From a virus (taxonomy: Duplodnaviria > Heunggongvirae > Uroviricota > Caudoviricetes): a stretch of DNA of 9,993 nt. Below, one piece after another: positions 1 to 7,373 of the stretch (position 1 is its first letter; each line of letters opens with the position of its first letter). Both the position numbers and the translations under genes were made by a program. The notes below the pieces were generated by a model. It had not been told where the DNA came from, searched no databases, and saw nothing but the letters and a program-made list of their open reading frames with translations. The stretch lies in IMG/VR virus record IMGVR_UViG_2563366799_000005; one strand, written 5' to 3'.

Positions 1-1053
1 TTACGGGGTAATGCCAACCGCTGCCGCCACTTTGTCGCCACTTGGCAGCGTTGCCAGAGGATTGAAACGGAGCGCCGTTTCCAGATGATCCGGTGCCAGA
101 TGAGCGTAACGCATAGTCATTTTTATATCGTGATGTCCGAGGATTTTTTGCAAAGCAAGGATATTTCCACCCGACATCATGAAATGCGCCGCAAACGTAT
201 GGCGCAGAACGTGTGTCAGTTGACCGCGAGGGAGCACGATTGACGTTTTTTCCATCACGGATAAAAATTGAAAATAGCAGTCTGTGAAGAAATTGAACCC
301 ATCAAGCGCCATGATCTCTTCATAAAGCTCTTTACTGATAGGGATGCTTCTGTTTTTCTTCCCCTTCGTTCTTACAAAGGTAATTCGGTATTTAGTCACC
401 TGTGATCGGGTAAGGTTTATTGCTTCTCGCCAGCGTGCGCCTGTGCTTAAGCATATCTTGACTACCAGTGCCAGAATTGGGTCCTGACGTTTGCAATCAG
501 CCAGCAGTTCAACAATCTGCTCATGGGTAAGCCATGCCATCTCTTTTTCTGCGATGGTGAATTTTCGCATGTTCTCCAGTGGGTTTGGATACGACCATTC
601 GCCCAGGCGGGATAGTTCGCTAAAAACACTACTTAGATAGCTTTGCTCCAGGTTAATGGTGACCGGGCTTGCTCCTTTCTTCCATTTCTCGCTGAAGTAG
701 ATCTCACCTGTCAGGCGTTTATCTCGATAGTGGGCAAACATTTTAGAGGTGAGATCGGTTGCAAGGGGATTGCCCAGAGCGTCAACCATCAACAGCAATT
801 TATCATAGACATGCTGCCCAGCGGTTAGAGATTTACCATGTAGTTTGAACCATAGCTCAACCACGTCTTTCAGTGTTCGACGATCCACTGATTCTCCCAG
901 CCAGGGCTTTGCTTCGGTTTCTTCCATCGTATGGCGCTCAAAAGCCAGAGCTTCGCCTTTGGTGGCGAATTGTTTACGCACACGACGCCCACTACGTCCG
1001 GCGGGGTAACATTCGCAAAGCCATTTTCCTGTGGTGAGTTTTCGTACTGCCAT
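1..1053 (-). CDS. int: Tyrosine integrase, P2/186 family (350 aa from ATG at 1053; stop at 1-3)
   Basis: N-terminus MAVRKLTTGKW...GRRVRKQFATKGEALAFE resembles P2 Int. Catalytic signature present: TGARWREA, HVLRHTFA, GHHDIKMTMRYAHL (R...H-x-x-R...Y). GGAGGG RBS 8 nt upstream of ATG 1053. The longer ORF to 1131 has no better start. Confidence 0.9.
   Translation of the reverse strand: MAVRKLTTGKWLCECYPAGRSGRRVRKQFATKGEALAFERHTMEETEAKPWLGESVDRRTLKDVVELWFKLHGKSLTAGQHVYDKLLLMVDALGNPLATDLTSKMFAHYRDKRLTGEIYFSEKWKKGASPVTINLEQSYLSSVFSELSRLGEWSYPNPLENMRKFTIAEKEMAWLTHEQIVELLADCKRQDPILALVVKICLSTGARWREAINLTRSQVTKYRITFVRTKGKKNRSIPISKELYEEIMALDGFNFFTDCYFQFLSVMEKTSIVLPRGQLTHVLRHTFAAHFMMSGGNILALQKILGHHDIKMTMRYAHLAPDHLETALRFNPLATLPSGDKVAAAVGITP
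19..40. repeat. Candidate attL core (left copy of the 22-bp direct repeat), inside the 3' end of int
   Basis: cgctgccgccactttgtcgcca at 19-40 matches 7139-7160 at 21/22 positions (single mismatch at position 30 vs 7150). Identity is lost immediately outside on both sides. Confidence 0.6.
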
Positions 1054-1239
1054 AAAAAATGCCCTCCAATAGAGAGCATTTTTACTGTATATATAACCAG
1101 TGTCAATGTATGAAATCCTGCGACCATACATCTCACTGAAGCCATAATGAAGTTGGCTATTTTTTGCTATGTGAGTATGTGACTTTTGCGGTTAGCCTGC
1201 GGCTCATTGTTATATTAGGCGCAGATATAAAAGCAAAAT

Positions 1240-1431
1240 TTATCGCGAGTTTTTAGTACAGATTTTTTTTGATTTACTAATAGTTCCATCATTGCAAACG
1301 AACTTTCCATCGGAGGTACAGTGAGAGACACCTCCCTTTTTCCCAGAACAAGGATAATTTTTAGCATAGGTAGTTAGTGGGTTTAATAACAAAGAGCATG
1401 ATAAAACCACAAAAAATACCTTACCAAGCAT
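1240..1431 (-). CDS. Hypothetical small secreted cysteine-rich, lysine-rich peptide (63 aa precursor); moron between cI and int
   Basis: Strong SD (GGGAGG) 5 nt upstream of the ATG and only 4 nt after the cI stop. N-terminus looks like a Sec signal peptide (MLGK + [12 protein letters not shown] + NPLTTYA, likely cleavage after TYA). Predicted mature part about 39 aa with 4 Cys, 8 Lys, net charge about +7. Locally very AT-rich. No family recognised. Confidence 0.5.
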
Positions 1432-1446
1432 AGTTTCCTCCCGGTA

Positions 1447-2016
1447 TTACCTAACGTACTTAATTGTTAAACTTATAATTTTCCCAATTATTTCAACATC
1501 TTCTATCTTGCACTCGAAGGCTCTGTTTCCACCTTCAACGAAGATTCTTCCACCGGGTAAACGAGTAATGTCGCGGATTGTTATTTCGCCATCAATACTT
1601 ATTACCCATTTACCGTCACGTATATCATCAAATTCTTTATCACAAATAAATTCAGAATTGTTATCTGTGATGACAAAAGGTTTTTTAAACGTAGAGGGTA
1701 GAAATCCCTTATCAAAAATATAAAAACCGTCTTCACGCAAGGCACCATCAGATAATACATATTTAGCAACTTCCATAGTATTTGTATTACCTGAAGTTTG
1801 CTTTGAACCATGTCCGGTTGTGAGCCAATTAAGCGAGGTGCCCGTTTCAAGGGCGCACTGGATTACCCATTCTGCTGGGAATGAGTCACGCATGTAGCGT
1901 GTGGCGAGTGTACTTTTAGAGATTCCTAAATGATCGCACAACGCCTGTCGAGTTTTGAATCCATAAGCTTCTACCATGCGCTCTATAGCGCCTCGTCCGC
2001 CTTTCTCCAAATTCAT
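1447..2016 (-). CDS. cI: Phage 186 CI-type immunity repressor (189 aa from ATG at 2016; GTG at 2022 is an alternative)
   Basis: N-terminal HTH (TRQALCDHLGISKSTLATRYMRDS) plus a C-terminal domain. Size of about 190 aa matches 186 CI, not the roughly 99-aa P2 C. Divergent from apl/cII across a short switch region. GGAG RBS 6 nt before the ATG. Confidence 0.85.
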   Translation of the reverse strand: MNLEKGGRGAIERMVEAYGFKTRQALCDHLGISKSTLATRYMRDSFPAEWVIQCALETGTSLNWLTTGHGSKQTSGNTNTMEVAKYVLSDGALREDGFYIFDKGFLPSTFKKPFVITDNNSEFICDKEFDDIRDGKWVISIDGEITIRDITRLPGGRIFVEGGNRAFECKIEDVEIIGKIISLTIKYVR

Positions 2017-2022
2017 GGTCAC

Positions 2023-2395: not shown

Positions 2396-2905
2396 ATGTT
2401 TGATTACCAAGTTTCCAAACATCCACATTTTGATGAAGCCTGTCGTGCATTCGCATTGCGCCACAACCTAGTGCAACTGGCAGAACGTGCAGGCATGAAT
2501 GTGCAGATTCTGCGGAACAAGCTGAACCCAGCTCAACCTCATTTATTAACCGCACCAGAAATCTGGTTGCTTACCGATCTGACTGAAGATTCAACGCTGG
2601 TAGATGGCTTTCTGGCACAGATTCACTGCCTGCCATGTGTACCGATTAATGAGGTGGCAAAAGAGAAACTGCCGCATTACGTCATGAGTGCAACTGCAGA
2701 GATAGGGCGTGTCGCGGCAGGTGCGGTTTCTGGCGATGTAAAAACCAGTGCAGGCCGTCGTGATGCGATCAGCAGCATTAACTCTGTTACACGACTGATG
2801 GCGCTGGCTGCTGTTTCATTGCAGGCCCGTTTACAGGCTAATCCTGCGATGGCGAGTGCAGTTGATACCGTGACTGGCCTCGGTGCTTCATTCGGTTTGC
2901 TGTGA
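2396..2905 (+). CDS. cII: Phage 186 CII-type regulatory protein (169 aa from ATG 2396; ORF track starts at TTG 2390)
   Basis: Position immediately after apl. Length of 169 aa equals the size I remember for 186 CII. HTH-like segment [27 protein letters not shown] 8 nt before ATG 2396. Confidence 0.8.
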
Positions 2906-3485: not shown

Positions 3486-3719
3486 ATGCGTAATATTGAA
3501 ACCCTCACGACCAAAACCGGACCGGATGATGCAGGTCTTAATCTTTTACTGACAGAGGCTCGTCTGGAAGAACGCCGGGCAAGGGCTGAAGCAATGGCTG
3601 CTCGCCTCGATAGCCTGGCGTGTCATATCACCTCCCGCCAGCTAAACCACGTCGAAGCGGCAGAACTGCTGCGTGTGACTGCTGAAGCAATCCAGAACGA
3701 AGCGCAGGAGATCCACTGA
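3486..3719 (+). CDS. Hypothetical early protein (77 aa), predicted helical; last gene before the rearrangement junction
   Basis: ATG 3486 with AGGAG RBS 9 nt upstream (ORF track starts at TTG 3480). Stop at 3717-3719 lies about 25 bp from where capsid homology begins on the opposite strand, so the 3' end may be junction-derived. Confidence 0.4.
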   Translation: MRNIETLTTKTGPDDAGLNLLLTEARLEERRARAEAMAARLDSLACHITSRQLNHVEAAELLRVTAEAIQNEAQEIH

Positions 3720-3741
3720 TGGCTGATGCAATGGATCTCGT

Positions 3742-4098
3742 ACACAGGTCCAGCTTCGCGTAGGTCAGCACCGTGTCAAAGTTGGTCTGCTCACATTTAT
3801 ATTCCACATCGACCATCAGCGTCGGATCGACAGGCTCACGCTCTTTTGCGGTGGTATCAGTGGTTCCGGCAATGGTGCTGCCAACACCCAGCCCCAGCAA
3901 CTGACCGGACTGCTCAGTCACTGGCGTGACGTTAATCAGCGTCAGGAATGCGGCGGATTGCTGGATCTGGTCTTCCAGCGTCTGCTGCACAGACGGCTCC
4001 ACGGTGAACTTGCTGGACAGTTCTTCAACTGCCACACCGTTCAGACGCGCCAGCTGCTGCAGGTAAGCGTTAAAAGCAAAGCGGGTATTCTTCTTCAT
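3742..4098 (-). pseudogene. 5' fragment of P2-family major capsid protein gene (gpN-like, first about 119 codons), inverted relative to expected orientation
   Basis: Translation MKKNTRFAFNAYL...LNG...KFTVEPSVQQTL...FLTLINVTPV...GSTIAGTTDTT...EYKCEQTNFD...YAKLDL follows the N-terminus of P2 gpN as I recall it (MRQETRFKFNAYL...KFTVEPSVTQTL...GSIASTTDT...YECDQINFD...YKTLDL). Similarity stops near nt 3742; the ORF then runs on as antisense of the upstream gene to 3628. GGAG RBS upstream of ATG 4098. Confidence 0.75.
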
Positions 4099-4199
4099 CG
4101 GGTTTTGTGCTCCATCAGCAATTGGTCAGAGTGTCAGCGGGGGCGTTACCGCCTGTTGCACGCTGGCGGTAGTCCTGGCGGCTGTCTTCATGACTCAGC

Positions 4200-6689
4200 T
4201 TGTCCACCAGTTCGTTAAAGGCGGTTTACTGCTGGGCACGCGCCATGCTCAACGAACGATACCAGGACTATGACGCCACGGCATCCGGTGTGAAGCGAGG
4301 CGAGGAACTGGCAGAAGCCAGCGGTGATTTGTGGCGTGACGCCCGCTGGGCCATCAGCCGGGTACAGGAACTTCAGCAGACCTATAACGGCTTGTTGGGG
4401 GCGGTCCAGAGACAACGTCAGGCACTTAAAGAATCAGGGATTGATACCAGACAACTCAGTAGTGCCCAGCGAGAACTTAAGAAAAATGCCGAAGAAACTC
4501 GTCAGGCACTGGAGGGCCAGCAAAAAGCACTTAAACGTCTGGGTGAACAACAGGCACGGATGAACGCTGCCAGAGAACAATACTCAAGACGGCTTGAAGT
4601 GCGCGATCGCATCGCAGGAGCCGGAGCCACCACCACGGCTGCAGGGCTGGCAATGGGCGCGCCAGTGATGGCGGCGGTAAAAAGCTATACCAGCATGGAA
4701 GATGCCATGAAAGGTGTGGCAAAGCAGGTCAATGGTCTGCGTGACGATAATGGCAACCGCACTGCGCGTTTTTACGAAATGCAGGATGCCATCAAAGCTG
4801 CCAGTGAACAGCTGCCAATGGAAAACGGTGCTGTGGACTTCGCCGCACTGGTTGAAGGTGGTGCGCGCATGAATGTGGCAAACCCTGACGACAGCTGGGA
4901 GGACCAGAAACGTGACCTGCTGGCCTTCGCCAGTACGGCAGCAAAGGCGGCAACAGCCTTTGAGCTGCCAGCGGATGAACTGTCAGAAAGTCTGGGGAAA
5001 ATCGCCCAGCTCTACAAAATACCAACCCGCAATATTGAACAGCTCGGTGATGCGCTGAACTATCTGGATGATAACGCTATGTCGAAAGGGGCAGACATCA
5101 TTGATGTCATGCAACGCCTGGGCGGTGTGGCTGATCGTCTGGATTATCGTAAAGCGGCGGCGCTGGGTTCCACCTTCCTGACACTGGGTGCTGCGCCGGA
5201 GGTCGCTGCCAGTGCTGCCAACGCGATGGTGCGTGAATTGTCCATTGCGACCATGCAAAGCAAGAGTTTCTTTGAAGGAATGAATCTGCTGAAACTCAAT
5301 CCTGAAGTGATTGAAAAGCAGATGACGAAGGATGCGATGGGAACTATCCAGCGCGTACTGGAGAAGGTGAATGCACTGCCGCAGGATAAGCGCCTGTCTG
5401 CCATGACCATGTTGTTTGGTAAAGAGTTTGGCGATGATGCGGCGAAACTGGCAAACAACCTGCCGGAACTGCAGCGCCAGCTAAAACTGACAGCGGGCAA
5501 TGATGCGCTCGGTTCGATGCAGAAAGAATCCGACATTAACAAGGACTCACTTTCTGCGCAGTGGTTGCTGGTCAAAACCGGAGCGCAGAACACCTTCAGC
5601 AGCCTGGGCGAAACGCTGCGCCAGCCGCTGATGGATATTCTGTACACGGTGAAAAGCATCACGGGGGCGTTGCGTTGCTGGGTGGAAGCTAACCCTGAAC
5701 TGACGGGCACACTGATGAAAGTAGCAGCGGTTGTGGCTGCTGTTACTGTGGGCCTCGGCACCCTGGCTGTGGTGTTGGCTGCTGTGCTGGGGCCGCTGGC
5801 AGTCATCCGTCTGGGATTCTCTGTGCTGGGTATCAAAACGTTACCTTCCGTTACGGCAGCAGTAACGCGAACCAGCAGCGCGTTGTCCTGGTTGGCTGGC
5901 GCACCACTTGCACTGCTGCGACGCGGGCTTGCTTCATCGGGCAACGCCGCAGGTTTACTTACTGCGCCGTTGTCGTCTTTGCGCCGCACGGCATCACTGA
6001 CGGGAAATGTCCTGAAAACTGTAGCAGGTGCGCCGGTTGCACTTTTGCGGTCTGGATTATCCGGTTTACGTGCTGTTGCTGTGATGTTTATGAATCCTCT
6101 GGCGGTACTGCGCGGTGGACTGGCCTCCGCAGGCACGGTGCTGCGAATACTGGCATCTGGTCCACTGGCGATGCTGCGCGTTGCCCTGTATGCCGTATCT
6201 GGTCTGTTAGGTGCTCTGCTCAGTCCGATAGGTCTTGTGGTTACTGCACTGGCGGGCGTGGCGCTGGTTGTCTGGAAATACTGGCAACCCATCACCGCAT
6301 TTCTTGGTGGCGTGGTGGAAGGATTCAAAGCGGCGGCAGGTCCCGTCAGTGCAGCATTCGAACCGCTTAAGCCAGTGTTCCAGTGGATTGGCGACAAAGT
6401 ACAGGCGCTGTGGGGCTGGTTTACTGATCTGCTGACGCCCGTTAAGTCGACCTCTGCCGAACTGCAGAGCGCAGCGGCAATGGGGCGACGATTCGGGGAG
6501 GCACTGGCGGAAGGGCTGAATATGGTCATGCATCCGCTGGACTCCCTGAAATCCGGCGTTTCCTGGTTGCTGGAGAAACTCGGCATTGTCAGTAAAGAGG
6601 CTGCAAAGGCGAAACTGCCGGAAAGAGTGACGCGTCAGCAAACCGTCGTCCGTCCACGCAGTTTCTGGGACCGGACAACGACATGCTGA
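4200..6689 (+). CDS. Phage tail tape measure protein (gpT-like); 829 aa from TTG 4200 or 814 aa from ATG 4245; both ends abut junctions
   Basis: Long alpha-helical, Gln/Ala/Leu-rich N-terminal half, hydrophobic Gly/Ala/Leu segment, and six degenerate repeats with 22-aa period (GAPLALLRRGL, TAPLSSLRRTA, GAPVALLRSGL, NPLAVLRGGL, SGPLAMLRVAL; nt about 5784-6186). In-frame stop at 4191-4193 leaves no room for more N-terminus and no good SD precedes either start. The last about 30 codons overlap the D-fragment frame. Confidence 0.85.
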   Translation: MSTSSLKAVYCWARAMLNERYQDYDATASGVKRGEELAEASGDLWRDARWAISRVQELQQTYNGLLGAVQRQRQALKESGIDTRQLSSAQRELKKNAEETRQALEGQQKALKRLGEQQARMNAAREQYSRRLEVRDRIAGAGATTTAAGLAMGAPVMAAVKSYTSMEDAMKGVAKQVNGLRDDNGNRTARFYEMQDAIKAASEQLPMENGAVDFAALVEGGARMNVANPDDSWEDQKRDLLAFASTAAKAATAFELPADELSESLGKIAQLYKIPTRNIEQLGDALNYLDDNAMSKGADIIDVMQRLGGVADRLDYRKAAALGSTFLTLGAAPEVAASAANAMVRELSIATMQSKSFFEGMNLLKLNPEVIEKQMTKDAMGTIQRVLEKVNALPQDKRLSAMTMLFGKEFGDDAAKLANNLPELQRQLKLTAGNDALGSMQKESDINKDSLSAQWLLVKTGAQNTFSSLGETLRQPLMDILYTVKSITGALRCWVEANPELTGTLMKVAAVVAAVTVGLGTLAVVLAAVLGPLAVIRLGFSVLGIKTLPSVTAAVTRTSSALSWLAGAPLALLRRGLASSGNAAGLLTAPLSSLRRTASLTGNVLKTVAGAPVALLRSGLSGLRAVAVMFMNPLAVLRGGLASAGTVLRILASGPLAMLRVALYAVSGLLGALLSPIGLVVTALAGVALVVWKYWQPITAFLGGVVEGFKAAAGPVSAAFEPLKPVFQWIGDKVQALWGWFTDLLTPVKSTSAELQSAAAMGRRFGEALAEGLNMVMHPLDSLKSGVSWLLEKLGIVSKEAAKAKLPERVTRQQTVVRPRSFWDRTTTC

Positions 6690-7160: not shown

Positions 7161-7218
7161 TCGTTAAAAAACAGTGCTTCTAACGTCATGATTTTAAACG
7201 GCATAAATTTCAGGCAAC

Positions 7219-7261
7219 AAAAAACCCATCAACCTTGAACCGAAATGGCGGGGTTGATGGG
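7219..7261 (-). terminator. Rho-independent terminator-like hairpin downstream of ybjL
   Basis: On the minus strand: 10-bp stem CCCATCAACC / GGTTGATGGG (7225-7234 with 7252-7261), 17-nt loop, followed by TTTTTT (complement of 7219-7224). No U-tract on the + strand side. Confidence 0.5.
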
Positions 7262-7373
7262 CTCCACAAAATGGGGACATCAAAGAAAAGCAGTGGCACT
7301 AATTAAGACTGATGCCCTGCGGAAAAGTTCTGCGGTTGTGCAAAAAAATTTCATTTTCAGGGCAACTTCAGTT

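What the first reader, a model, noticed from the sequence alone, without database searches (positions are those of the whole stretch)
1240..1446. Moron in the lysogenic operon: small secreted cationic four-cysteine peptide between cI and int
186/P2-type phages normally have int directly after the repressor gene. Here a 63-codon ORF is inserted, starting 4+5 nt after the cI stop with a near-consensus SD (GGGAGG), so it should be translated from the lysogenic (cI-int) transcript in every lysogen. The product has a credible Sec signal peptide and a short mature peptide with 4 Cys and 8 Lys, which suggests a disulfide-stabilised periplasmic or exported peptide. Local AT-richness fits horizontally acquired cargo. 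Expression pattern plus export is what one expects of a lysogenic-conversion, superinfection-exclusion or toxin-like factor. I do not recognise the family.
Basis: partly seen in the sequence, partly recalled or inferred. Interest (0 to 1): 0.7.

Follow-up and report, generated by a model that had tools for sequence, protein, structure and literature searches.

The report
YdcA-family periplasmic mini-protein after prophage cI
The small gene between the repressor and integrase of this decayed 186-like E. coli prophage is real and strongly conserved, but it belongs to an already catalogued family (YdcA) of tiny exported, disulfide-rich proteins whose function nobody has yet established.

Summary
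A 63-codon ORF (1431..1240, minus strand) starts 15 nt after the cI stop, behind a GGGAGG Shine-Dalgarno. It encodes a signal peptide plus a 40-residue mature peptide with 4 Cys, 8 Lys and net charge +7.

It is a real gene. A second allele differs at 12 nt, 11 of them synonymous. Across the family, synonymous sites are saturated while pN is about 0.11.

The family is known. It passes NCBIfam NF007463 above its cut-off, matches Pfam PF27300 "YdcA" and phrog_6000, and RefSeq names this exact protein "YdcA family protein". The ORF is in 632 of 5,426 complete E. coli genomes, including BL21(DE3). K-12 carries a chromosomal paralogue, ydcA, of unknown function.

It is absent from 186, P2 and ESSI2_ev129. 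However, cI–YdcA is a conserved pair in 186-like prophages of Escherichia, Klebsiella, Enterobacter and Yersinia, and in Haemophilus phage HP2, where the ORF is unannotated.

Two leads on function:
- **Dis2 resemblance:** the domain resembles one lobe of Legionella Dot/Icm protein Dis2.
- **Nuclease fusions:** in other proteins it is fused N-terminally to three classes of secreted nuclease.

Function is untested. My favoured guess, at about 30%, is an envelope-resident binder of a polyanion, probably DNA, that acts in exclusion of foreign DNA.

The parts
1240..1431 (-). CDS of the 63-aa YdcA-family pre-protein; the stop codon is 1242-1240
   Evidence: ORF list. NF007463 at 116.1 bits, above the cut-off of 93. 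phrog_6000 at 4.6e-34. RefSeq WP_001321204.1 'YdcA family protein'. Of 12 allelic differences, 11 are synonymous.
1363..1431 (-). Codons 1-23: Sec-type signal peptide (MLGK / [12 protein letters not shown] / NPLTTYA), with predicted cleavage after Ala23
   Evidence: Hydropathy. Ala at -1 is invariant while the rest of the segment is only 17-60% identical between prophages. K-12 YdcA is described as having a signal sequence and being predicted periplasmic (PMC11340327). No dedicated predictor was run.
1243..1362 (-). Codons 24-63: the 40-aa mature peptide. It holds the 33-34-residue YdcA core ([12 protein letters not shown]...[15 protein letters not shown]) with four invariant Cys
   Evidence: Alignments A1, A2 and A8. 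AF2 pLDDT is 84-92 over this part. Net charge is +7.
1437..1442 (-). Shine-Dalgarno GGGAGG, 5 nt before the ATG and 4 nt after the cI stop
   Evidence: Sequence read directly.
1447..2022 (-). 186-type cI repressor gene. RefSeq starts it at 2016. YdcA lies in the same reading frame, five codons downstream
   Evidence: PF07022 at 2.8e-33 and PF16452 at 2e-28. RefSeq annotation.
1055..1083 (-). 13-bp hairpin (AAAAAUGCUCUCU-AUU-GGAGGGCAUUUUU). It is followed by, and includes, a U-run, and it occludes the int Shine-Dalgarno (1067-1062) just before the int ATG (1053). It is a likely attenuator or terminator separating cI-ydcA from int
   Evidence: RNA fold of 1245..1040, z = -3.5. The simple terminator scan did not call it. 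Its function is inferred.
1..1053 (-). P2/186-type tyrosine integrase gene, the last gene of the lysogenic operon in this window
   Evidence: PF24624 at 3e-32 and PF00589 at 7e-22.

Best explanation
The ORF encodes a YdcA-family (PF27300 / NF007463) mini-protein.

Shown:
- It is a real gene under strong purifying selection.
- It sits 15 nt behind cI with a strong SD.
- The mature 40-residue part is the best-conserved protein segment of the whole lysogenic operon.
- The same cI-YdcA pairing recurs in 186-like prophages of Escherichia, Klebsiella, Enterobacter and Yersinia, and in Haemophilus phage HP2.

Inferred:
- It is co-transcribed with cI from the lysogenic promoter, so it is made in every lysogen and even in this decayed remnant.
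- It is exported by Sec and cleaved after Ala23.
- It is oxidised in the periplasm to two disulfides, giving a 4.3-kDa, +7 peptide.
- A hairpin plus U-run in front of int probably makes cI-ydcA the main lysogenic message.

Function is a guess, with about 30% for the specific version. The YdcA domain is a small cationic binding module for a conserved polyanionic ligand of the envelope. I favour nucleic acid, because the only enzymes fused to the domain are three unrelated classes of secreted nuclease. In the lysogen the free peptide would then interfere with entry of foreign DNA: superinfecting phage, and possibly conjugation or transformation. That would be analogous to rexAB riding on the lambda cI transcript.
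For: Identity:
- NF007463 above its cut-off, phrog_6000, PF27300:YdcA and the RefSeq name.

Coding and selection:
- 11 of 12 allelic differences are synonymous.
- pS is about 0.95 against pN about 0.115.
- Cys, Gly and Lys core residues are invariant.

Operon position:
- for the spacing and SD.
- No terminator-like site between cI and the ORF.

Conserved synteny:
- HP2 and Yersinia.
- Other E. coli, Klebsiella and Enterobacter.
- Mature peptide 74-95% identical, against cI at 36-71%.

Retention in decayed prophages: this window and BL21(DE3).

Disulfide-rich periplasmic fold:
- The only structural or sequence relative in the PDB is Dis2 (7MUC/7MUD chain AN). Foldseek gives prob 0.99 and 39% identity; the profile gives E = 2.6e-4 over two lobes; hhalign gives E = 2.3e-4.
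- Dis2 has all 10 Cys in five disulfides and sits next to the outer membrane (PMC8486379).

Binding-module idea:
- In 140 of 193 proteins that match the domain pattern, the domain starts at residues 20-29, which I read as directly after the signal peptide.
- It is cationic in 253 of 260 variants, mean +3.8.
- It is fused through linkers to Endonuclease_NS (3 proteins), SNase (1) and PLD/Nuc-like (1).
- HP2 places a secreted OB-fold (tRNA_anti-like) protein right after it.

Cargo slot: the cI-int interval also holds a KAP NTPase, HP1 orf1-4 and a 350-aa protein in Klebsiella phage 4LV2017.
Against: - There is no experimental datum on any phage-borne member. The literature calls K-12 YdcA a protein of unknown function.
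- The only phenotype reported for the family points to host physiology, not exclusion. Delta-ydcA in E. coli W is sensitive to 300 mM 3-hydroxypropionate, and acid/YdcI-dependent induction has been reported (PMC7642389).
- Genomic context across 78 species is heterogeneous. Only 5 loci have a 186-type cI upstream and only 6 have an integrase downstream. In Moraxella phages the gene lies among structural genes.
- There is no PADLOC hit.
- Nuclease fusions could equally mean that the domain anchors enzymes to the envelope (peptidoglycan, outer-membrane complexes) rather than binding DNA. Dis2 is a protein-protein docking subunit and is not cationic.
- Export, cleavage, disulfides and co-transcription are all inferred. 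The consensus scan found no lysogenic promoter.
Confidence: 0.55

Rival explanations
1. It is a host-fitness (lysogenic-conversion) factor. Like chromosomal YdcA, the peptide would stabilise or buffer the envelope under acid or organic-acid or other envelope stress. The prophage copy would simply raise or deregulate the dose of a host function, with no role in excluding foreign DNA.
For: - Delta-ydcA in E. coli W grows poorly with 300 mM 3-HP, and ydcA is reported as YdcI-dependent and acid-induced (PMC7642389).
- Many family members are chromosomal and sit next to housekeeping genes such as cybB.
- The window protein is about 50% identical to K-12 YdcA and shares the same core.
Against: - E. 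coli already has ydcA, so a second copy needs another rationale.
- The 3-HP phenotype comes from a single, uncomplemented observation.
- This reading does not explain the nuclease fusions or the tight, repeated linkage to cI in five genera.
Confidence: 0.25
2. It is an envelope-docking or masking peptide. The domain would bind peptidoglycan or an outer-membrane-proximal protein complex, as Dis2 does in the Dot/Icm cap. As a free peptide it would mask or plug such a structure, for example a phage receptor, a secretion machine, or the substrate of tail lysozymes.
For: - Dis2 contacts the lipoproteins DotK, DotC and DotD next to the outer membrane (PMC12716638).
- One family member carries a T6SS VasL domain.
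- UniRef labels this very protein 'Conjugal transfer protein' and others 'Periplasmic protein' or 'Lipoprotein'. These are unverified names.
Against: - Mature peptides are 74-95% identical from Escherichia to Haemophilus. That argues for a universal ligand rather than a strain-specific receptor.
- No secretion-system genes are adjacent in the window.
- Dis2 is dispensable and its own role is unknown.
Confidence: 0.15
3. It is a toxin or bacteriocin-like antimicrobial peptide released by the lysogen.
For: A YdcA-family gene was flagged inside a hydrogen-cyanide cluster of an antagonistic Pseudomonas strain, but without functional data.
Against: - A Sec signal alone only reaches the periplasm of a Gram-negative cell.
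- No immunity gene, ABC exporter or lysis gene is nearby.
- The gene is constitutively linked to cI and is present as a single chromosomal gene in many species.
Confidence: 0.04
4. It is not a functional gene: an AT-rich spacer with a chance ORF, or an ORF whose translation only serves to couple ribosomes towards int.
For: The region is AT-rich. Several database records leave the ORF unannotated, including HP2/S2 and Mcat16.
Against: - 11 of 12 substitutions are synonymous.
- The amino-acid core is conserved across alpha-, beta- and gamma-proteobacteria with saturated synonymous sites.
- A curated HMM is passed above its cut-off.
- A 186-nt structured spacer, not coupling, separates the ORF from int.
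Confidence: 0.01

Closest known systems
E. coli K-12 YdcA (b1419) and the YdcA family (Pfam PF27300; NCBIfam NF007462, NF007463, NF007464; phrog_6000)
   Same: Same architecture: a signal peptide plus a roughly 34-residue core, PCSG-KGG-x-HC...F-x-C-x-DG-x-S-x-SK-x-x-C, with four invariant Cys. The window protein passes the NF007463 cut-off and is about 50% identical to K-12 YdcA.
   Different: It belongs to the NF007463 subgroup, not the K-12 equivalog NF007462 (68 bits against a cut-off of 118). It is carried in a prophage lysogenic operon rather than next to cybB/rydC/hokB. The function of either is unknown.
[quoted passage not shown]
   Same: It is the only solved structure that matches. 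Each Dis2 lobe aligns with the YdcA core (CCSKMGGINYC..GRLVCNNGFYS). All its Cys are in disulfides and it is located in the periplasm. A Dis2-like protein carries the PF27300 annotation.
   Different: Dis2 has two lobes and five disulfides. It is not cationic. It is a stoichiometric part of a secretion machine, and the papers read here describe it as Legionella-specific. The window protein is a single free domain with no secretion-system genes nearby. Statistical support for homology is moderate.
Accessory genes co-transcribed with a prophage repressor, such as lambda rexA-rexB on the cI transcript (from my own knowledge, not tested here)
   Same: The gene lies directly downstream of the immunity repressor in the lysogenic transcript, so it is expressed in the lysogen. 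It is dispensable for the phage life cycle, since 186 and P2 lack it.
   Different: There is no sequence relationship. RexAB are cytoplasmic or inner-membrane abortive-infection proteins, whereas this is an exported 4-kDa peptide. An exclusion phenotype has not been shown.
Small exported superinfection-exclusion proteins such as T4 Spackle or the T5 Llp lipoprotein (from my own knowledge)
   Same: They are small, signal-peptide-bearing, phage-encoded envelope proteins. Llp is also disulfide-bonded.

Membership tests
YdcA family (PF27300 / NCBIfam NF007463) | Whole-protein HMM score above the curated cut-off | tested here: met
   NF007463 scores 116.1 bits against a cut-off of 93, covering profile positions 1-58 of 58. 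PF27300 is precomputed for the identical cluster. The local Pfam copy lacks this newer model.
YdcA family (PF27300 / NCBIfam NF007463) | Four Cys and the PCSG-KGG / F-C-DG-S-SK-C core conserved in register | tested here: met
   P27, C28, S29, K32, G33, G34, C38, F44, C46, D48, G49, S52, S54, K55 and C58 are invariant in 22-24 diverse members.
YdcA family (PF27300 / NCBIfam NF007463) | N-terminal Sec signal peptide, with the domain directly after it | tested here: inconclusive
   There is a hydrophobic h-region and an invariant Ala at -1. The domain starts at residues 20-29 in 140 of 193 proteins that match the pattern. No signal-peptide predictor or experiment was available.
Dis2 (Lpg0823)-type T4SS outer-membrane-cap subunit | Sequence and fold similarity to a Dis2 lobe | tested here: inconclusive
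Dis2 (Lpg0823)-type T4SS outer-membrane-cap subunit | Two tandem lobes with five disulfides, and association with Dot/Icm genes | tested here: not met
   The window protein has a single domain with four Cys. Its neighbours are cI and int.
Classical phage moron | Present in some phages and absent from close relatives at the same position | tested here: met
   Absent in 186, P2, ESSI2_ev129 and HP1. Present in this prophage, in HP2/S2 and in related prophages.
Classical phage moron | Own promoter and terminator flanking the insert | tested here: not met
   The consensus scan finds no promoter upstream, since the gap to cI is only 15 nt. It calls no terminator on the minus strand. A hairpin plus U-run lies 157 nt downstream, in front of int.
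Classical phage moron | Base composition distinct from the flanking phage genes | tested here: inconclusive
   GC is about 0.35, but the low-GC tract also covers the 3' half of cI.
Known anti-phage defence or exclusion proteins (PADLOC-DB) | Match to a model of a known or candidate defence protein | tested here: not met
   0 families at E <= 0.1.
Bacterial lipoprotein (a name some sources give to homologues) | Lipobox [LVI][ASTVI][GAS]C at the end of the signal peptide, conserved in the family | tested here: not met
   VLSC at residues 9-12 is too close to the N-terminus and is not conserved. Homologues end the signal with AxA and have no Cys there.
Bacteriocin / microcin | Adjacent immunity and dedicated export genes | tested here: not met
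   The neighbours are cI, int and, in relatives, a KAP NTPase.

The most novel reading that the evidence does not exclude
YdcA-family mini-proteins would be a widespread, so far unrecognised class of periplasmic factors that bind incoming nucleic acid, or dock onto DNA-translocating envelope machines. 186-like and HP2-like temperate phages would co-express them with their repressor to exclude foreign DNA. Under this reading the 'Legionella-specific' T4SS subunit Dis2 is a duplicated, domesticated member of the same fold.
Probability: 0.2. Interest if true: 0.7.

Novelty: already known. Interest (0 to 1): 0.35.

Why it matters
The gene itself is catalogued, so the finding does not reveal a new kind of element. 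It still matters in a modest way.

- It is a 4-kDa exported peptide that is probably made constitutively together with the repressor.
- It is present in about 12% of complete E. coli genomes, including the workhorse strain BL21(DE3).
- It is the most conserved protein segment of the lysogenic operon from Escherichia to Haemophilus, yet its function is unknown.
- The two leads found here give concrete hypotheses that can be tested cheaply: similarity to the Dot/Icm subunit Dis2, which the papers read here describe as having no homologues outside Legionellales, and recurrent fusion to secreted nucleases.

Tried and rejected
- **Local Pfam-A scan of the ORF:** only a chance hit (PF22906, E 0.07), because PF27300 is newer than the local copy.
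- **PADLOC:** no hit.
- **Neighbour census:** 78 upstream and 76 downstream ORFs around family members in one genome per species showed no dominant partner. There were 5 cI, 6 integrase and 4 cytochrome b561, with the rest scattered. The family is therefore not exclusively prophage-borne.
- **Promoter/terminator scan:** no own promoter or terminator, and no lysogenic promoter detected.
- **Rfam on the whole window:** only RybB, and nothing in the finding region.
- **Repeat search:** only a 14-nt two-copy chance repeat.
- **Literature on ydcA:** 30 papers, mostly B. subtilis YdcA rhomboid or F-plasmid and gonococcal-island genes that merely share the name. The E. coli papers give expression changes only.
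- **Domain-only profile search:** The repeat listed only single-domain proteins, so it added no fusion architectures.
- **Zn-ribbon or metal site:** rejected. There are no CxxC knuckles, and Dis2 shows disulfides.
- **Lipoprotein:** rejected, because the lipobox is out of register and not conserved.
- **Overlapping 50-aa ORF (1215..1367, minus strand, other frame):** rejected, because the substitutions fall on third positions of the 63-aa frame.
- **Cys-Cys pairing in the AF2 model:** could not be checked, because no coordinates are returned.

Full report
**Setting.** The window is E. coli chromosome carrying a decayed 186/P2-like prophage, integrated between rcdA and the RybB/ybjL region.
- On the minus strand lie int (1..1053), the 63-codon ORF (1240..1431) and a 186-type cI (1447..2022; PF07022 plus PF16452).
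- On the plus strand follow an apl/cox-like gene, cII (PF06892), fil, DUF5347 and DUF2732.
- Then come only remnants: a P2 capsid N-terminal fragment, a GPL-fragment/tape-measure fusion, and ogr.
- After that come RybB, ybjL, ybjM and grxA.
- The first 2.4 kb is 100% identical to several E. coli chromosomes.

**Observation.** Read directly:
- cI ends with TAA at 1449-1447.
- Next comes 'tacc', then GGGAGG (1442-1437), then 'aaact', then ATG at 1431. The spacer is 15 nt and in frame with cI.
- The product is [23 protein letters not shown]|[40 protein letters not shown].
- The N-terminus has the n/h/c layout of a Sec signal. The h-region hydropathy reaches 2.8, and the c-region ends T-Y-A.
- The mature part is 40 residues with 4 Cys, 8 Lys, 1 Arg and 2 Asp, pI 9.6.

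The AT-rich tract (GC 0.32-0.37) runs from about 1100 to 1800 and includes the 3' half of cI, so it does not single out the ORF.

**Is it a gene?** Yes.
- Among 80 IMG/VR prophage copies there are two main alleles. They differ at 12 nt, of which 11 are synonymous and one is K24R.
- In pairwise comparisons with 80 species-level homologues, the 27-codon core has pS about 0.95 (saturated) and pN about 0.115.
- Alignments show 16 invariant positions, including all four Cys and the Ala at -1 of the predicted cleavage site, while the signal peptide itself is free to vary.
- The overlapping 50-aa ORF in another frame is excluded by the third-position pattern of the substitutions.

- NCBIfam NF007463 scores 116 bits against a cut-off of 93.
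- phrog_6000 scores 4.6e-34.
- Pfam PF27300, named 'YdcA', is precomputed for it.
- RefSeq calls this exact protein (WP_001321204.1) 'YdcA family protein'.
- E. coli K-12 ydcA (b1419, 57 aa, next to cybB, rydC and hokB) is a paralogue with the same core.
- The family has 460 representative clusters at 50% identity and 960 clusters at 90% identity.
- In a one-genome-per-species scan, 228 stretches encoding a relative were confirmed. The listed loci are almost all alpha-, beta- and gamma-proteobacteria.
- The literature describes K-12 YdcA only as a small predicted periplasmic protein of unknown function (PMC11340327).
- One study reports that delta-ydcA in E. coli W is sensitive to 300 mM 3-hydroxypropionate, and mentions acid/YdcI-dependent induction (PMC7642389).
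- Other mentions are expression lists or 'poorly characterized'.

**Is it an insert at the cI-int junction?** Relative to the type phages, yes.
- In 186, cI and int overlap.
- In P2 they are 115 nt apart, and in ESSI2_ev129 78 nt apart.

But it is not sporadic.
- The ORF plus spacer occurs in 632 of 5,426 complete E. coli genomes, including BL21(DE3) and ATCC 8739. In BL21(DE3) it lies in the P2-like prophage that also carries a retron.
- Divergent variants all lie directly after a 186-type cI: P0010 in other E. coli, P0028 in Klebsiella and P0023 in Enterobacter.
- Yersinia prophages show the same arrangement.
- So does Haemophilus phage HP2/S2, where a 60-codon ORF overlapping the cI stop is not annotated.
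- Compared with the window, the mature peptide is 74-95% identical. cI is 36-71%, Int 49-99% and the signal peptide 17-60%.

The cI-int interval is a cargo slot.
- Some relatives add a KAP NTPase after YdcA.
- HP1 has four other ORFs and no YdcA.
- Klebsiella phage 4LV2017, whose int is 97% identical, carries a different 350-aa gene there.

Outside Peduoviridae the gene sits elsewhere, for example among head-tail genes in Moraxella Mcat phages. Across 78 species the neighbours are heterogeneous.

**Expression logic (inferred).**
- Nothing resembling a terminator separates cI from the ORF.
- The 186-nt spacer to int is significantly structured, z = -3.5.
- It ends in a 13-bp hairpin with a U-run (1083..1055) that buries the int Shine-Dalgarno.
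- This suggests that cI-ydcA is the abundant lysogenic message and that int is attenuated.
- No lysogenic promoter was detected by the consensus scan. Its existence is inferred from synteny with 186.

**Structure and relatives.**
- AlphaFold2 with a 24-sequence alignment gives pLDDT 84-92 for the mature domain, a small beta-hairpin core.
- Foldseek against the PDB returns a single meaningful hit, chain AN of 7MUC/7MUD, with prob 0.99 and 39% identity.
- A profile search of PDB sequences finds the same chain at E = 2.6e-4, with both of its lobes aligned. hhalign gives E = 2.3e-4.
- That chain is Dis2 (Lpg0823) of the Legionella Dot/Icm outer-membrane cap.
- The papers read here describe Dis2 as specific to Legionellales.
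- A Dis2-like protein carries the PF27300 annotation.
- The homology is plausible but only moderately supported. The window protein fails the defining features of a Dis2-type subunit, which are two lobes and a T4SS context.

**Domain architectures.**
- The domain almost always follows the signal peptide directly.
- It is cationic in 253 of 260 variants.
- It also occurs in two or three tandem copies.
- Among 36 longer representatives, the only recurring enzymatic partners are secreted nucleases of unrelated folds, joined by Ser/Pro-rich linkers: Endonuclease_NS (3), SNase (1) and PLD/Nuc-like (1).
- Other C-terminal partners are a basic 'PBCV adaptor'-like domain, Lys-rich repeats and a VasL domain.
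- In HP2 the next gene encodes a secreted OB-fold (tRNA_anti-like) protein.

**Mechanism.**
- What is solid: a Sec-type pre-protein of a conserved family, placed so that it is expressed with cI.
- What is inferred: export, cleavage, two disulfides and a periplasmic location.
- The role is open. I commit to the reading that the YdcA domain is a binding module for a conserved polyanionic envelope ligand. I favour nucleic acid because of the nuclease fusions.
- On that reading, the free prophage-encoded peptide interferes with entry of foreign DNA. I put this at about 30%.
- The main rivals are a host-fitness or envelope-stress role like that hinted for chromosomal ydcA (about 25%), and docking or masking of an outer-membrane-proximal structure as in Dis2 (about 15%).
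- A toxin or bacteriocin reading is unlikely, since there are no immunity or export genes and single chromosomal copies are common.
- The 'not a gene' reading is refuted.

**Verdict.**
The ORF is extra relative to 186 and P2, it is exported-looking, and it is placed for lysogen expression.
- However, it belongs to a known family, it is a conserved partner of cI rather than a one-off insert, and its function is untested.
- Novelty: already known as a catalogued gene family of unknown function.
- Interest is moderate to low (0.35). That score comes from its prevalence, its extreme conservation, and the two leads that make its function directly testable: Dis2 similarity and nuclease fusions.

Noticed in passing
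window 1055-1083 (-), with the int SD at 1062-1067 and the int ATG at 1053: A 13-bp hairpin with a U-run lies immediately upstream of int and buries its Shine-Dalgarno. The whole 186-nt ydcA-int spacer folds better than shuffles (z = -3.5). This looks like an attenuator or terminator limiting int expression from the lysogenic transcript. A sigma-70-like site (TTGACA-17-AAAAAT, 1106..1078) overlaps it.
   Followed up: partly
L002 3420-3602 (Haemophilus phage HP2, NC_003315 record coordinates about 2486-2668, minus strand); also phage S2: An unannotated 60-codon YdcA-family ORF overlaps the cI stop codon in HP2 and S2. It is followed by orf1(S), which has a signal peptide and a tRNA_anti-like OB-fold (PF12869, 2.8e-13). 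HP1 instead has orf1-orf4 at this place.
   Followed up: yes
L172 and L175, 3698-5029: In related E. coli and Klebsiella 186-like prophages, a 443-aa KAP-family P-loop NTPase sits between YdcA and int. The cI-int interval therefore behaves as a cargo slot, possibly for defence genes.
   Followed up: no
window 7216-7294 (-): The RybB sRNA (Rfam RF00110, 105 bits) lies 78 nt beyond the ogr gene at the prophage's right end. The attachment site of this prophage is therefore probably at or near rybB.
   Followed up: no
window 3631-6686: The prophage is a remnant. A P2-type major-capsid N-terminal fragment lies on the minus strand (3631-4098). It abuts an 829-codon ORF that fuses a GPL head-completion fragment to a tape-measure protein (4200-6686). 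By contrast int, ydcA, cI, apl, cII and fil are intact.
   Followed up: partly
L167 (E. coli BL21(DE3), NZ_CP053602, 873-884 kb): BL21(DE3) carries the identical YdcA-family protein after cI, in the defective P2-like prophage that also encodes a retron (annotated St85-family RT and effector). In that copy cII and the replication endonuclease are pseudogenes.
   Followed up: no
proteins P0188, P0160, P0103, P0197: The YdcA domain is fused N-terminally to three unrelated secreted nuclease folds: Endonuclease_NS, SNase and PLD/Nuc-like. In alpha- and beta-proteobacteria it is fused to a basic C-terminal Cys-rich domain that reaches the PBCV_basic_adap threshold in one case. In Providencia it is fused to long Lys-rich repeats.
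   Followed up: partly
PDB 7MUC/7MUD chain AN against alignment A2: Dis2 (Lpg0823) of the Dot/Icm T4SS is described in the papers read as Legionellales-specific and without structural neighbours. It aligns lobe by lobe with the YdcA core, and a Dis2-like protein carries the PF27300 annotation. No paper in the searchable library mentions both names.
   Followed up: partly
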